A stretch of 64,000 nucleotides of DNA from assembly GCA_014728035.1 (NCBI GenBank), contig WJMJ01000059.1, forward strand, positions 1 through 64,000, written 5' to 3'. Position numbers and translations under genes: made by a program. Below, piece after piece: positions 5,605-61,051 of the stretch. This DNA comes from Promethearchaeota archaeon. Its GTDB lineage: Archaea > Asgardarchaeota > Thorarchaeia > Thorarchaeales > Thorarchaeaceae. The notes under the pieces were generated by a model, which did not search any database, was not told where the DNA came from, and saw only the letters and a program-made list of their open reading frames with translations. The stretch's first letter is position 1. Every line of letters starts with the position of its first letter.

Positions 5605-6201
5605 ATGATGGAAACTAAACGTCTATTTACAGGTGTAATCGTTATCATCATTGTTACCATTGGTGTTTTTGGATTTCTTGTCACCAGTATGAGTTTTCCA
5701 AATGATAATAACAATGATACAACAACCGATGACACAGATGATTCGATATATCCACCGTTGATATTTGATGATCAGGATCTCTTGAACGAAAGCATCGAAG
5801 TACCTAACTGGAATTTTACACTGAGTACGAATGAAACATTAAGTATGGCCGACCTTAGAGGAAGAATCACCATTCTTGATTTTATGGCACGTTGGTGTGG
5901 ATATTGCGCACAACAAAACCACCATCTACGGATTCTACAAGAAGAATATGGCGACTCGATAAATATTGTTTCTGTGTGTGTGGATCTTGCTGACACTCTT
6001 GAACAGCTCACGGAGTATAAAGAGGAGAAAAATGTCACATGGCCGCTAGGTCTAGATATTGATGGATCTTCTGATTGGTTACGAGTGAGATATATTCCTA
6101 CGTTGGTTATCGTCGACGGTGACGGGATGCTGCGTTGGAATCATGAAGGCACATGGGATGCCACATCAATGGCTGAAACCATTGAAAGTCTTATGGGATA
6201 G
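5605..6201 (+). CDS. Membrane-anchored TlpA/ResA-like thioredoxin
   Basis: N-terminal TM helix; DFMARWCGYC active site; cis-Pro YIPT motif. Confidence 0.85.
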   Translation: MMETKRLFTGVIVIIIVTIGVFGFLVTSMSFPNDNNNDTTTDDTDDSIYPPLIFDDQDLLNESIEVPNWNFTLSTNETLSMADLRGRITILDFMARWCGYCAQQNHHLRILQEEYGDSINIVSVCVDLADTLEQLTEYKEEKNVTWPLGLDIDGSSDWLRVRYIPTLVIVDGDGMLRWNHEGTWDATSMAETIESLMG

Positions 6202-6212
6202 TTGAGGGATTA

Positions 6213-6896
6213 TTGATTCTAGACGTGCTTCTTCAGGCGGCATCCTCATTTGGGGTGGGACTATACATTGCAACCTCTCCTTGCCTTTTCCCTCTTCTCC
6301 CTCTGTTCCTACTTCGTACACTTCAATCTGAGGAAAGTCGGACAAGAAGTGTATTGGTAACAGGGGTCCTATCCTCTGGAATCTTAGTATCTCTAGTCAT
6401 TTTTCTTTTCCTTGCACAATTCATTGGCTTGCTTATTATTATGTACTTCACTTACCTTCAAGCTGTTCTTGGATCGATTATCATTTTCATTGGCATCTTA
6501 ATGATATCTGAGCGACTGAGAGAAATCTTGCGTCTATCCAATCTTGGTATGCAAAAAGGACCTGATAGTCCCAACGGATTAGTAGGAGTCTTCGTGATTG
6601 GATTTGGTTATGCCCTCCTTGCTGCACCCTGTACCGGACCTGCACTATTTGCATTGGTAGCTCTTTTTGGTGTACAATCTGAATTGTTTGTTAGTATTCT
6701 CATGTTTGTTTTGTTAAGTATTGGAGTGTTTATTCCTTATCTTGCAATTGCTATAACAACGGGAGAAGCCCGCGACCGTATAGCAACAAAAATCACTACA
6801 TCTGCTCGAAAAATAGAAGTTGTGGTTGGAGTTCTTTTAGTGATTGTTGGCGTCTTTCTGACCTATCCCCTTATTGAGATTGCAATCGGTCTATAA
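6213..6896 (+). CDS. ccdA: CcdA/DsbD-type transmembrane electron transporter
   Basis: About 6 TM helices with SPCLFPLLP and APCTGP cysteine motifs; paired with the thioredoxin. Confidence 0.85.
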   Translation: MILDVLLQAASSFGVGLYIATSPCLFPLLPLFLLRTLQSEESRTRSVLVTGVLSSGILVSLVIFLFLAQFIGLLIIMYFTYLQAVLGSIIIFIGILMISERLREILRLSNLGMQKGPDSPNGLVGVFVIGFGYALLAAPCTGPALFALVALFGVQSELFVSILMFVLLSIGVFIPYLAIAITTGEARDRIATKITTSARKIEVVVGVLLVIVGVFLTYPLIEIAIGL

Positions 6897-6945: not shown

Positions 6946-7001
6946 TAGTCACAAATTGTGACTACTTCCAGTGTCCTATAATCGTGGCTTTCCATTATAT
7001 A
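6946..7001 (+). promoter_or_regulatory. Perfect palindrome plus TATA box upstream of the micropeptide cluster
   Basis: TAGTCACAA-A-TTGTGACTA (6946-6964) and TTATATA (6995-7001), about 32 nt before the first ATG. Confidence 0.6.
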
Positions 7002-7032
7002 CTGATTCTGAGTAGTAATCTTGTGAACAATC

Positions 7033-7137
7033 ATGGCGTTAGCGATTAACTCCCGACCCAACTCAGAGACGAAGAACATCACCCGTAAGAAGCAGACCAC
7101 CAAGGCTCTGACCTTTGCTTACACCTACCGGAGGTAG
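7033..7137 (+). CDS. 34-aa basic micropeptide MALAINSRPNSETKNITRKKQTTKALTFAYTYRR
   Basis: ATG...TAG downstream of the TATA box; C/G-ending codon bias; paralogous C-terminus with the next ORF. Confidence 0.65.
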   Translation: MALAINSRPNSETKNITRKKQTTKALTFAYTYRR

Positions 7138-7143
7138 AACACA

Positions 7144-7227
7144 ATGGCGGTATCCAAGACCAAGATCATCAAGGCAACCAAGACCCCCTCAACCAAGGCT
7201 ATCACTGATGCTTACTTCAGGAGGTAA
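7144..7227 (+). CDS. 27-aa basic micropeptide MAVSKTKIIKATKTPSTKAITDAYFRR
   Basis: SD GGAGGT about 8 nt upstream; shares TKA(L/I)TxAY..RR with the previous ORF. Confidence 0.7.
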   Translation: MAVSKTKIIKATKTPSTKAITDAYFRR

Positions 7228-7232
7228 TATCG

Positions 7233-7334
7233 ATGAAGCCTAGCGTTGATACACAATCAACTACTACTCACCAAGACTCTAGCAAGAGCGGTGACCTAAC
7301 TACAAGCGAAGTGCTCGCGTTGGAAGCAACCTGA
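7233..7334 (+). CDS. 33-aa Ser/Thr-rich acidic micropeptide MKPSVDTQSTTTHQDSSKSGDLTTSEVLALEAT
   Basis: SD AGGAGGT about 7 nt upstream; T-run after the stop codon. Confidence 0.6.
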   Translation: MKPSVDTQSTTTHQDSSKSGDLTTSEVLALEAT

Positions 7335-7468
7335 GCACACGCTCTTTTTATCATCCGGTTTCCAATTAGATATCATCCTGTTTTGTATACTGAACAAACC
7401 TATATACTAACTGCATCACATATGAATTTCATCTGAAACATCAGAAATGTTTATTTCTCAATATCTGT

Positions 7469-60244: not shown

Positions 60245-61051
60245 TCAATCCTTTCTCTCAAAATTAGCTTTGCCACCTTCTTTTTCTACTAATGTGGTGA
60301 CTTCTTCGCGAATTGCAGAGAGTAAATCTTCTCCATCTTTGTAATCTGGACTTGTAATTCTGATTTTGTATCTTGGAGCTCCAAGTGTGTATATTTCAAC
60401 AGATGATTTATCGTCTTTTTTTCCAATTTCAAGGCCTTTGGTAAGGGCTTCTCTAATAACTTCAACGCCTCTCGACCCAGGGACTTGGATGGTGAAATCG
60501 CCATCAATCTCTACTGAGGGTATTTCAATGCGAGATTCTGCTAATTCGGAGATCTTTTCTTTTAGTTTCTTGTCAGCATCAATTTCATCAAGTGCGGAAA
60601 TACCAATATCAGCGATACGCTCCAATCCTGTATAGATTTCTCCAAAGTAGTCTTCCATTGGCCAACCTATTGCTTCATACACCTCTTCCAGAGACATATC
60701 ACTATCTTTTGCAATAAGCTCCAATAGCTTCTCTGCTTTTTGAGATCGTTTCCATTCGTTATTCTTAGCTTTTTTGGCTTCTGCTGATACTCTTCTTAGT
60801 GAACAGTCAATATGTTCCTTATAGCTATCCACCTTGAGAACTCTAACAACTATTCTTTGATTCTCTTGGATGTGATTTCTGATGTTCCTTACCCACGTGC
60901 TGCTGACCTCGGAGATGTGAATGAATCCCTCTTTATCTCCGTATTCTGGTAACATCACATATGCTCCATATGGAGTAACTTTGGATGCTACTGCTACAAC
61001 ATATTCGTCTGGATTGGGCCATTCTGCACGTTTCAAGACCATTCTTTTCAT
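60245..61051 (-). CDS. eif2a: Translation initiation factor aIF2 alpha
   Basis: YGAYV.L.EY..KEGFIHISE S1 domain; GAPRY.I. Confidence 0.96.
   Translation of the reverse strand: MKRMVLKRAEWPNPDEYVVAVASKVTPYGAYVMLPEYGDKEGFIHISEVSSTWVRNIRNHIQENQRIVVRVLKVDSYKEHIDCSLRRVSAEAKKAKNNEWKRSQKAEKLLELIAKDSDMSLEEVYEAIGWPMEDYFGEIYTGLERIADIGISALDEIDADKKLKEKISELAESRIEIPSVEIDGDFTIQVPGSRGVEVIREALTKGLEIGKKDDKSSVEIYTLGAPRYKIRITSPDYKDGEDLLSAIREEVTTLVEKEGGKANFERKD

What the first reader, a model, noticed from the sequence alone, without database searches (positions are those of the whole stretch)
6946..7350. Unannotated operon of three micropeptides with its own operator, TATA box and chained Shine-Dalgarno sites
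Seen: a perfect 19-bp palindrome (TAGTCACAA-A-TTGTGACTA), then TTATATA, then ORFs of 34, 27 and 33 aa, then a T-run. ORF1 and ORF2 end in Arg-Arg-stop codons that spell GGAGGT, the SD for the next ORF. They share TKA(L/I)TxAY..RR (DNA accaaggct...gcttac...ggaggta), indicating duplication. Codons are strongly C/G-ending (ACC, AAG, AAC, ATC, TAC), unlike the flanking genes. Two peptides are Lys/Thr-rich and basic with a superficial histone-tail-like composition; the third is Ser/Thr-rich and acidic. Inference: a regulated, probably highly expressed microprotein system (nucleic-acid or ribosome-binding peptides, modified-peptide precursors, or signals). No modifying enzyme is adjacent. It sits between rps7 and tuf.
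Basis: partly seen in the sequence, partly recalled or inferred. Interest (0 to 1): 0.78.

Follow-up and report, generated by a model that had tools for sequence, protein, structure and literature searches.

The report
Multicopy three-micropeptide operon of Thorarchaeota
The flagged 400 bases are a real, unannotated mini-operon for two tiny basic proteins and one tiny acidic protein, kept in several homogenised copies by one family of Asgard archaea and driven by the same switch as a membrane transporter; what the peptides do is still unknown.

Summary
The stretch from palindrome to T-run is one of four copies (86-98% identical) in this Thorarchaeota genome. A sister species has five copies, four at syntenic sites. 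The ORF1 profile matches 73 of 76 genomes of this family and 0 of 224 genomes from 29 other Asgard families.

All three ORFs evolve as coding sequence. dN/dS is 0.42, 0.12 and 0.26 in frame, against 0.8-3.1 out of frame, and the frame relations between ORFs vary. ORF1 and ORF2 are paralogues. A covarying hairpin overlies the last ORF3 codons and the stop.

The perfect palindrome occurs five times in the genome (0.02 expected): at the four operons and before a small ORF plus an MFS transporter. A second Asgard family has the same site before its MFS genes but no peptides.

No protein, RNA, phage or defence family matches. Function is inferred: most likely tied to the co-regulated transporter, as cargo or modulator.

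This scan has already found the operon on other DNA: paralogous copies in this genome and other Thorarchaeota genomes.

The parts
6946..6964 (.). Perfect 19-bp palindrome (core GTCAC-N5-GTGAC), the presumed binding site of a dimeric transcription factor. It also marks the 5' boundary of the repeated unit.
   Evidence: There are 5 perfect copies in the genome against 0.02 expected, all at these units or before an MFS gene. It is conserved in 56 units of many genera. Homology among paralogues starts here.
6971..6989 (+). Two further half-site-like blocks, GTGTCC (GTGACC in other genera) and GTGGCT, lying between the palindrome and the TATA box.
   Evidence: Both are at least 80% conserved in the promoter profile of 56 units.
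6995..7001 (+). TATA box TTATATA.
   Evidence: It is invariant in position and nearly invariant in sequence across units, and the ORF1 ATG always follows 31 nt after it.
7021..7032 (+). Conserved TTGTGAA block and the inferred transcription start (about 7024-7027), giving a leader of under 10 nt with no SD.
   Evidence: Conserved block. The start is inferred from the usual archaeal spacing between TATA box and start site. It was not measured.
7033..7137 (+). ORF1 (A1): a 34-aa cationic peptide, net charge +7, pI 11.1. The N-terminus MALAxN and the C-terminal motif ST.AL.YAY..R are conserved.
   Evidence: dN/dS 0.42 in frame, with variable columns 7/9/18 at codon positions 1/2/3. Found in 73 of 76 family genomes as 34-44-aa open frames. 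Alignment A1. AF2 model: disordered residues 1-23 plus a helix at 24-33.
7130..7135 (+). GGAGGT Shine-Dalgarno site for ORF2, formed by the ORF1 Arg-Arg-stop codons.
   Evidence: Complementary to the 16S 3' end. GGAGGT or GAGGTGA is conserved at this junction in other genera.
7144..7227 (+). ORF2 (A2): a 27-aa cationic paralogue of ORF1, net charge +6, ending in ST.AI..AYFRR.
   Evidence: dN/dS 0.12, with variable columns 2/3/15. hhalign A1 against A2 gives probability 97.7%. Alignment A2. A 1-nt indel before it in G001 copies shifts its frame relative to ORF1 without breaking either ORF.
7220..7225 (+). GGAGGT Shine-Dalgarno site for ORF3, formed by the ORF2 Arg-Arg-stop codons.
7233..7334 (+). 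ORF3 (C): a 33-aa acidic, Ser/Thr-rich peptide, net charge -3, pI 4.4. The N-terminal part is variable and the C-terminus EVLALEAT is near-invariant.
   Evidence: dN/dS 0.26. Codons 1-24 vary 5/6/13 by codon position, and the frame is open for at least 22 codons in 31 of 31 distinct units against 0% and 58% for the other frames. An in-frame 3-nt indel separates paralogues. Alignment A3. AF2 model: disordered plus a helix at 24-31.
7305..7343 (+). Conserved RNA hairpin (core stem 7311-7317 with 7332-7338, inner stem 7319-7322 with 7327-7330, loop GAAG) covering the last ORF3 codons and the stop codon.
   Evidence: dG -19.8 kcal/mol, z -3.65. 86% of cells are paired against 29-54% in slid controls. 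Compensatory changes: GC to AU in 5 sequences and CG to UA in 2. None of 500 shuffles reaches the covariation score.
7345..7349 (+). T5 run, the likely archaeal termination signal and the 3' boundary of the repeated unit.
   Evidence: Paralogue homology ends here. T-rich runs follow the hairpin in other genera.

Best explanation
Core (about 0.9; coding is shown comparatively, expression is not shown). Window 6946-7349 is one of four homogenised copies of a self-contained protein-coding mini-operon found in only one family of Thorarchaeota.

A TATA promoter with an upstream palindrome gives a transcript of about 320 nt that is almost leaderless. ORF1 starts near the 5' end. ORF2 and ORF3 are started from GGAGGT sites written into the Arg-Arg-stop codons of the preceding ORF. 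A conserved hairpin over the ORF3 stop codon, followed by a T-run, ends the unit.

The products are two paralogous cationic peptides and one acidic peptide. Each is modelled as a disordered charged tail plus one short C-terminal helix, and that helix is the conserved part.

Regulation (about 0.75 for a shared regulon, inferred). The palindrome-promoter module is the same one that precedes lineage-specific MFS transporter genes. It is also found, in weaker form, before a bactofilin-like gene. The peptides are therefore probably made in response to the same signal, through an unidentified dimeric DNA-binding factor. The core TCAC-N5-GTGA and its position upstream of the TATA box resemble an activating TGM/TrmBL1 site.

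Function (inferred, about 0.45 together). The peptides work with that transporter, either as exported cargo (about 0.25) or as soluble modulators of it or of its regulon (about 0.20). In at least six genera, A-type small ORFs lie between this promoter and the MFS gene. The stand-alone A1-A2-C operons would then be amplified, gene-converted offshoots that supply bulk peptide.
For: Coding:
- In-frame dN/dS is 0.42/0.12/0.26, against 0.78-3.1 in the shifted frames. Variation is concentrated at third codon positions.
- Indels are in frame, and ORFs stay intact when a 1-nt indel changes their relative frame.
- The ORF1 profile hits 73 of 76 family genomes, always as open frames of about 35 aa, and 0 of 224 genomes elsewhere in the phylum.
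- 43 stand-alone peptides of 29-38 aa turn up among 1.84 billion predicted proteins. The ten clusters looked up carry no name or only 'hypothetical protein'.

Multicopy and concerted evolution:
- 4 copies here and 5 in G001.
- Four positions are syntenic.
- Paralogues are 86-98% identical, positional orthologues only 80-84%.

Regulon:
- 5 perfect palindromes against 0.02 expected.
- A promoter profile also finds sites before two MFS paralogues, a bactofilin-like gene and an unknown 290-aa gene. The bactofilin site is conserved in G001.

MFS link:
- MFS homologues lie 335-1042 nt downstream of the promoter, with small A-type ORFs in between, in L005, L012, L025, L078, L080 and L084.
- The same arrangement is seen in G006, G145, G148, G001, G002, G008 and G011.
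- In family f12, which lacks the peptides (0 of 19), MFS orthologues (18 of 19) carry the same palindrome and TATA about 100 nt upstream.

Other points:
- TGM consensus and the position rule for activation come from PMC4706686.
- Fold models.
- Hairpin.
Against: - Transcription, the start site and translation are all inferred.
- The link to the MFS gene may be historical only: the peptide gene may have arisen in the MFS leader and taken the promoter along when it duplicated.
- In f12 the transporter and its operator exist without the peptides. MFS paralogues at the conserved syntenic site in f1 have no operator.
- The peptides are hydrophilic (GRAVY about -0.7) and 3-4 kDa, which is atypical for MFS substrates. 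I know of no precedent for MFS export of a 30-aa peptide (own knowledge).
- A modulator of a membrane transporter would not obviously need 4-12 gene copies.
- The transcription factor is unidentified. The best TrmB-like gene is phylum-wide, and no regulator gene is a conserved neighbour.
Confidence: 0.55

Rival explanations
1. Bulk cytoplasmic polyanion binders. The two cationic peptides (tail plus helix) coat RNA, ribosomes or DNA under a particular condition, comparable to SASPs or protamine-like proteins. The acidic peptide pairs with them through its helix as a buffer or chaperone. The link to the MFS gene is only shared promoter ancestry.
For: - Net charges average +4.8 and +5.8 against -3.4, with Lys/Arg/Tyr-rich conserved C-termini.
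- 1-12 copies per genome and concerted evolution suggest selection for dosage.
- The only PDB matches, and those weak, are basic N-terminal rRNA-contacting tails of eS1 (E 0.1-0.4).
- Translational coupling would give roughly equimolar products.
Against: - The eS1 match is not significant, and this genome's own eS1 N-terminus is unlike the peptides.
- No nucleic-acid-binding family matches.
- This reading does not explain why A-type ORFs sit in MFS leaders in at least six genera.
- The summed charge of the trio is strongly positive, so the acidic peptide cannot neutralise the other two.
Confidence: 0.25
2. Cis-acting leader or arrest peptides. The A-type ORFs are translated only to control what lies downstream (the MFS gene, or ORF3), by ribosome stalling at the conserved C-terminal motif next to the stop codon. 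The peptide itself has no function in trans.
For: - A-type ORFs lie in the 5' leaders of MFS genes.
- Conservation is strongest in the last 10-12 residues before the stop codon, which overlaps the next SD.
- The MFS-leader versions diverge fast except at the C-terminus.
Against: - The stand-alone operons end in a terminator with no downstream gene.
- They are kept in 4-12 homogenised copies.
- The N-terminus MALAxN is also conserved, and selection on the whole of ORF2 is strong (dN/dS 0.12).
Confidence: 0.08
3. Precursors of ribosomally made, post-translationally modified peptides, whose modifying enzymes are encoded elsewhere in the genome.
For: - Conserved termini flank hypervariable Ser/Thr/Lys/Asn-rich middles (A1, A2).
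- ORF3 has a variable body with an invariant C-terminal tag.
- The paralogues are multicopy.
Against: - No modifying enzyme is adjacent at any of the 9 loci examined in two species.
- Cys is essentially absent (0-0.2% in A1/A2).
- No precursor family matches in Pfam or NCBIfam.
- The invariance of the ORF3 C-terminus is partly explained by the RNA hairpin.
Confidence: 0.06
4. The functional product is the RNA, either a structured or regulatory non-coding RNA or a mobile MITE-like repeat, and the ORFs are incidental.
For: - The unit is a dispersed repeat of about 400 bp with sharp ends.
- It carries a covarying 3' hairpin.
- The promoter and 5' region are better conserved at the DNA level than the middle.
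Against: - All three frames show coding signatures, which are absent from the shifted frames.
- No Rfam family matches.
- The whole-transcript fold has z of only -1.8, most of it from the 3' hairpin.
- There are no terminal inverted repeats or target duplications in the aligned ends.
- Copies sit at syntenic sites in two species.
- It is absent from viral contigs apart from one chance hit.
Confidence: 0.03

Closest known systems
Leaderless multi-peptide bacteriocin operons of Firmicutes (aureocin A70, enterocin L50/DD14, garvicin KS; review PMC6131525)
   Same: Two to four paralogous cationic peptides of about 30-44 aa without leader sequences, encoded back to back in one small operon and linked to a transporter.
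   Different: Those peptides are hydrophobic, amphipathic and membrane-active, and their operons carry ABC exporters and immunity genes, often on plasmids. Here the peptides are hydrophilic and mostly disordered. An acidic third peptide is present. The linked transporter is an MFS. The copies are chromosomal, syntenic and archaeal.
psm-alpha operon of Staphylococcus aureus (phenol-soluble modulins; own knowledge)
   Same: Tandem paralogous micropeptide genes that annotation long overlooked. They have their own promoter with a regulator site directly upstream and make bulk product.
   Different: PSMs are about 20-aa amphipathic helices exported by the Pmt ABC system, at a single locus. There is no sequence or physicochemical similarity to these peptides.
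Regulatory small proteins of Methanosarcina mazei (sP26 with glutamine synthetase, 10.1101/2020.05.06.080432; small proteome, PMC11456600)
   Same: Archaeal micro-proteins of 20-60 aa under a nutrient-responsive promoter that act on metabolic or transport proteins. They were unannotated until looked for.
   Different: Those are single-copy and monocistronic, with no paralogue pair and no acidic partner, and are unrelated in sequence. No target is known here.
Thermococcales glycolytic motif (TATCAC-N5-GTGATA) bound by TrmBL1 (PMC4706686)
   Same: Palindrome with the same core TCAC-N5-GTGA and the same spacing. It lies upstream of BRE/TATA, the position that activates in Pyrococcus. The regulon includes transporters.
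   Different: The flanking bases differ (GTCAC against ATCAC). The phylum is different. No TrmB-type protein has been linked to the site, and the transporter substrate is unknown.
Microcin C operon (mccA peptide gene with the MFS exporter MccC; own knowledge)
   Same: A tiny ribosomal peptide gene in one transcription unit with an MFS pump.
   Different: MccA is 7 aa and is heavily modified by enzymes encoded alongside it. No such enzymes are present here.

Membership tests
Leaderless multi-peptide bacteriocins | Tandem paralogous genes for leaderless peptides of about 30-44 aa | tested here: met
   ORF1 and ORF2 are paralogues (hhalign probability 97.7%). They are 34 and 27 aa, with no signal or leader sequence.
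Leaderless multi-peptide bacteriocins | Hydrophobic or amphipathic, Trp-rich, compact helical membrane-active peptides | tested here: not met
   Mean GRAVY is -0.68 and -0.70, and Trp is 0-0.4%. The AF2 model has 23 disordered residues plus one 10-residue helix.
Leaderless multi-peptide bacteriocins | Adjacent dedicated ABC exporter and immunity genes | tested here: not met
   The neighbours here are a thioredoxin-like gene, a DsbD-like gene, an unknown membrane protein and EF-1alpha. The neighbours of the other copies are unrelated housekeeping genes. Only an MFS gene is linked, and only in some loci.
Phenol-soluble modulins | Amphipathic alpha-helix over nearly the whole 20-45-aa peptide | tested here: not met
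RiPP precursor peptides | Modifying enzyme genes encoded next to the precursor | tested here: not met
   None is present at the 4 copies in this genome or the 5 in G001.
RiPP precursor peptides | Match to a known precursor or leader family | tested here: not met
   Pfam and NCBIfam give no hit at E up to 10, apart from a sub-threshold UBA_2 match for ORF2.
TGM / TrmBL1 regulon | Palindrome TATCAC-N5-GTGATA | tested here: inconclusive
   The site is TAGTCAC-N5-GTGACTA. The core TCAC-N5-GTGA and the spacing are identical, but the flanks differ.
TGM / TrmBL1 regulon | A TrmB-family regulator tied to the site | tested here: inconclusive
   The genome has 8 matches above the Pfam cut-off. The best match (259 aa) is found in 86 of 151 genomes of the phylum, so its distribution says nothing. 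No regulator gene is a conserved neighbour.
Known RNA families (Rfam 15) | Covariance-model match at or near the gathering score | tested here: not met
   Only two chance-level matches (E 1.3 and 6.3), far below gathering score. No tRNA or tmRNA lies here.
MITE / small mobile element | Terminal inverted repeats and target-site duplications, with variable insertion sites between relatives | tested here: not met
   The aligned ends show no TIR or TSD. Four insertion sites are shared by two species.
Ribosomal protein tails (eS1; eL29 recalled from memory) | Significant sequence match to the family | tested here: not met
   The PDB profile search gives only E 0.1-0.4 to eS1 N-termini. This genome's own eS1 is dissimilar. 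No Pfam hit at all (so none to the eL29 family either) for 12 peptides.
Anti-phage defence or phage protein families | Match to PADLOC or PHROGs models | tested here: not met
   No hit at E up to 10.

The most novel reading that the evidence does not exclude
A micro-protein gene family that arose de novo in the 5' leader of an MFS transporter gene in the ancestor of one Thorarchaeota family. It was then copied together with its promoter into 4-12 dispersed, gene-converted operons and gained an acidic third peptide. The trio now forms an archaeal multi-peptide system that is exported, or acts at the cell surface, through the co-regulated transporter. I know of no such system described in Archaea. 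Asgard archaea are thought to live in syntrophy, so peptide-based communication or competition would be especially interesting.
Probability: 0.15. Interest if true: 0.85.

Novelty: categorically new. Interest (0 to 1): 0.62.

Why it matters
Thorarchaeota are uncultured Asgard archaea, and their annotated proteomes leave these genes out altogether. The ten database clusters looked up carry no name or only 'hypothetical protein'.

This gene family is near-universal in the lineage, multicopy, under strong purifying selection and homogenised by gene conversion. Its product is therefore likely to be abundant and physiologically important.

The family also offers several tractable handles:
- A clean case of concerted evolution of a whole expression unit in an archaeon.
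- A defined cis-regulatory site, with a small regulon, for which a transcription factor can be sought.
- A plausible example of micro-protein birth from a transporter leader.
- Three 3-4 kDa peptides that can be synthesised chemically and tested without culturing the organism.

The novelty label is by exclusion: every family tested failed. No new mechanism has been demonstrated.

Tried and rejected
- Complex prediction on A1+A2+A3 gave no verdict (score 0.06 against a mark of 0.32). This is not evidence for or against binding.
- The search for homologous proteins refuses queries under 40 aa. A 40-aa ORF3 homologue found no candidate.
- The protein-atlas search gave no usable hit for ORF1 or ORF3.
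- ORF1 and ORF2 are in the same frame here, separated by TAG, so read-through or a pyrrolysine fusion was considered. It was rejected because their relative frames differ among paralogues and genera.
- Origin from the eS1 gene was rejected.
- The resemblance of a peptide subfamily to eL29, recalled from memory, has no Pfam support.
- The phyletic profile of the best TrmB-like gene is uninformative.
- A search for a conserved regulator next to operator-bearing MFS genes found none.
- The MFS protein has no sequence relative in the PDB and no NCBIfam subfamily.
- The viral-contig scan gave one chance hit that lacks the promoter blocks.
- The metagenome scan with the 3' motif gave only 4 contigs and no transcript-like records.
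- Full-text searches found no paper that describes this family.
Full report
OBSERVATION.
- Perfect 19-bp palindrome at 6946-6964.
- TTATATA at 6995-7001.
- ORFs of 34, 27 and 33 aa at 7033-7137, 7144-7227 and 7233-7334.
- GGAGGT at 7130-7135 and 7220-7225, spelled by the Arg-Arg-stop codons and complementary to the 3' end of this genome's 16S rRNA.
- A T5 run at 7345-7349.

The 15-nt core of the palindrome occurs five times in the 4.33-Mb genome, where base composition predicts 0.02.

The codon bias is real. GC3 is 0.76 and 0.74 for ORF1 and ORF2, against a genome mean of 0.32. All 11 Lys codons are AAG.

No Rfam family, tRNA or tmRNA matches the region.

IT IS A REPEATED UNIT. The stretch from the palindrome to the T-run, and nothing beyond it, recurs three more times in this genome:
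- G000:C151:42039-42449, minus strand
- G000:C25:329832-330242, plus strand
- G000:C9:14409-14809, minus strand

The four copies are 86-98% identical and their flanks are unrelated.

A second species of the same genus (G001, titled Candidatus Thorarchaeota archaeon) has five copies. Four of them lie next to the same neighbour genes as the four copies here. Positional orthologues are nevertheless only 80-84% identical, less than paralogues within either genome (86-98%). The copies are therefore being homogenised, which is concerted evolution. The position between rps7 and tuf is incidental.

THE ORFS ARE CODING. Across the nine units of the two species, variable columns fall at codon positions 1/2/3 as follows:
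- ORF1: 7/9/18
- ORF2: 2/3/15
- ORF3: 6/7/14

In-frame dN/dS is 0.42, 0.12 and 0.26, while the shifted frames give 0.78-3.1.

ORF3 keeps this signature in its variable first 24 codons (5/6/13). Its frame is open for at least 22 codons upstream of the conserved end in 31 of 31 distinct units, against 0% and 58% for the other two frames.

Indels are in frame. A 1-nt deletion between ORF1 and ORF2 in three G001 copies changes their relative frame and leaves both ORFs intact. Across genera the three ORFs occur in every frame combination. They are therefore translated separately, not by read-through of the TAG that separates ORF1 and ORF2 here.

ORF1 and ORF2 are paralogues (hhalign probability 97.7%). 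ORF3 is unrelated to them.

DISTRIBUTION. A profile of ORF1 (alignment A1) matches 73 of 76 genomes of the window's family, with 1-12 hits per genome. Every listed hit is an uninterrupted open frame, nearly all of 34-44 aa. It matches none of 224 genomes from 29 other families of the phylum.

Against 1.84 billion representative proteins the same profile finds 43 sequences, nearly all stand-alone peptides of 29-38 aa. The ten clusters looked up carry no name or only 'hypothetical protein'.

Pfam, NCBIfam, PADLOC, PHROGs and the ESM Atlas give nothing. The PDB gives only a non-significant likeness to basic N-terminal tails of eS1, and this genome's own eS1 gene does not share it. Full-text searches found no paper that describes the family.

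THE PEPTIDES. Both A-type peptides are hydrophilic and cationic: mean GRAVY about -0.7 and mean net charge +4.8 and +5.8. ORF3-type peptides are acidic, with a mean charge of -3.4. Cys and Trp are essentially absent from the A-type peptides and rare in ORF3-type ones.

Conservation is concentrated at three places:
- the N-terminus of A1 and A2 (MALAxN or MALAK)
- their C-terminal ST.A(L/I)..AY...R(R)
- the last eight residues of ORF3 (EVLALEAT)

AlphaFold2 with these alignments models ORF1 and ORF3 alike. About 23 residues have low confidence and no secondary structure. They are followed by one short helix, at residues 24-33 in ORF1 and 24-31 in ORF3, with block pLDDT of 83-86. The helix coincides with the conserved motif.

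THE 3' HAIRPIN. The last ORF3 codons, the stop codon and the next nine bases fold into a hairpin of -19.8 kcal/mol (z -3.65).

In 29 distinct units, 86% of cells pair, against 29-54% when the partners are slid. There are compensatory changes: GC to AU in five units and CG to UA in two. None of 500 shuffles reaches the covariation score.

This explains why the end of ORF3 is conserved even at silent sites. It also means that the invariance of EVLALEAT is partly an RNA constraint. The role of the hairpin, whether in 3'-end formation, in stability or in access to the stop codon, is not known.

THE SWITCH AND ITS OTHER TARGETS. A profile of 56 promoters shows these conserved blocks:
- the palindrome
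- GTGACC 7-8 bp downstream of it
- GTGGCT just before the TATA box
- TCTGAG
- TTGTGAA at the inferred start site
- the ORF1 ATG, at a fixed 31 nt after the TATA box

The fixed spacing implies a leader of under 10 nt with no SD. This is inferred, not measured.

In this genome the profile also finds the following:
- A full site before a diverged 36-aa small ORF followed by an MFS gene (G000:C8:60527).
- Weaker sites before a second MFS paralogue (G000:C25:345277).
- A weaker site before a bactofilin-like gene (G000:C16:15747), conserved in G001.
- A weaker site before an unknown 290-aa gene (G000:C10:33648).

In other genera the MFS homologue lies 335-1042 nt downstream of the promoter, with one to three A-type ORFs in between (coordinates).

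The MFS subfamily also occurs in a second family, f12 (18 of 19 genomes), where the peptide profile finds nothing (0 of 19). Even there, four of the eight MFS genes inspected carry a close variant of the palindrome (one mismatch or none in three) and a TATA-like box about 100 nt upstream, with no small ORF.

The operator-transporter pair is thus found beyond the peptides' range and may be older than they are. The simplest history (inference) has three steps. An A-type ORF arose in the MFS leader. It was then copied with its promoter. The copies later gained ORF3.

The palindrome core TCAC-N5-GTGA, its spacing and its position 43 bp upstream of the TATA box match the TGM site of TrmBL1. That site activates when it lies upstream of the promoter (PMC4706686).

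This genome has TrmB-family genes. The best one is phylum-wide, and no regulator is a conserved neighbour. The factor is therefore unidentified and the TrmB idea remains only a lead.

WHAT IT MOST LIKELY DOES.

Shown comparatively: a translated tricistronic operon that is multicopy, homogenised, lineage-restricted and shares a cis-element with MFS genes.

Not shown: transcription, translation or any activity.

The only functional association in the data is with the transporter. I therefore put about 0.45 on a role coupled to it, split between exported cargo (0.25) and soluble modulator (0.20). Against this stand the hydrophilic 3-4 kDa nature of the peptides, the independence of the transporter in f12, and the possibility that the link is purely historical.

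The main rival (0.25) is a bulk cytoplasmic polycation that binds RNA, ribosomes or DNA, with the acidic peptide as its partner. Cis-acting leader peptides (0.08), RiPP precursors (0.06) and an RNA-only or mobile element (0.03) are less likely, for the reasons given under the rivals.

AN UNEXPLAINED FEATURE. GC3 of ORF1 and ORF2 exceeds that of EF-1alpha (0.42) and S7 (0.26). It also exceeds the 99th percentile of 3542 ORFs of at least 120 aa. The bias is family-wide: AAG to AAA is 157:18 in A1 and 80:15 in A2. It is therefore not simply the codon usage of highly expressed genes.

Three explanations are possible, and none was tested:
- Avoidance of A/T runs in Lys/Asn/Ile/Thr-rich ORFs, which could cause oligo-T termination, slippage or spurious TATA boxes.
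- GC-biased gene conversion among the copies.
- Selection for an unstructured A/C-rich mRNA.

COMPARISON AND NOVELTY. The nearest analogies are leaderless multi-peptide bacteriocin operons and the psm-alpha operon. They resemble this operon in architecture only: hydrophobicity, fold and exporter type were tested here and not met.

Other analogies are:
- archaeal regulatory micro-proteins such as sP26 of M. mazei
- the microcin C peptide with its MFS pair
- the TGM/TrmBL1 site, for the operator

The operon is a member of none of these. I label it categorically new by exclusion, with moderate interest because no mechanism has been shown.

Earlier notes of this scan had already reported the same operon on the other copies of this genome and in other Thorarchaeota genomes. 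I reached the core reading before reading them and re-tested their claims here.

Noticed in passing
L012:1418-1480 (G000:C8, just upstream of the operator at 60530): Two direct copies of a roughly 20-nt element, TATAGTTTGTAA(A/T)GCAAACC, each next to a TATA-like stretch. They lie between a 3-hydroxyacyl-CoA-dehydrogenase-like gene and the operator-bearing promoter.
   Followed up: no
window 5605-6896: A thioredoxin/AhpC-like gene and a DsbD/CcdA-type membrane gene lie between rps7 and EF-1alpha. This is an unusual insertion into the str-operon region. G001 keeps the CcdA-like gene, the peptide operon and EF-1alpha together.
   Followed up: partly
window 7033-7227, and all A1/A2 homologues: GC3 of 0.74-0.76 is far above that of EF-1alpha, S7 and 99% of the genome's ORFs. 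The cause is unexplained: avoidance of A/T runs, GC-biased gene conversion or selection on mRNA structure.
   Followed up: partly
L008, L054, L061, L064, L066, L093, L094 (other Thorarchaeota genomes): A distinct subfamily of the first peptide (36-37 aa, ...RRKWTQAHMD.ELLKL.AYTYFRR) combines an A1-type N-terminus with an A2-type C-terminus. In several of these loci it is followed by an ORF3-like end (EVLAL(D/E)AT plus the hairpin), with no separate A2 gene.
   Followed up: no
L107, L108, L109, L111 (family f12 genomes G110, G091, G065, G096): In an Asgard family without the peptides, MFS orthologues carry the same palindrome (for example GTCACAATCTGTGAC), followed by GTGAG and a TTTAATA box, about 100 nt before the start codon.
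   Followed up: partly
L100:50-1373 (G000:C16:15747-17072): A 411-aa bactofilin-like gene (PF04519, repeated GGSVKV units) has an operator-like site, ATAGTAACAAATTGTGAC, plus a TATA box. The arrangement is conserved in G001 (L092).
   Followed up: partly
Search results for G012, G059, G024 and G063 (TrmB-like gene) and G007 (MFS gene): Single in-frame TAG codons occur inside otherwise full-length orthologues in several Thorarchaeota genomes. Two of those genomes belong to one genus. The cause could be read-through, pyrrolysine, or sequencing error or pseudogenes.
   Followed up: no
G000 contigs C74, C164, C152: The few long ORFs with GC3 above 0.75 lie on these contigs. They may belong to the 8.5% estimated contamination of the assembly rather than to the archaeon.
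   Followed up: no
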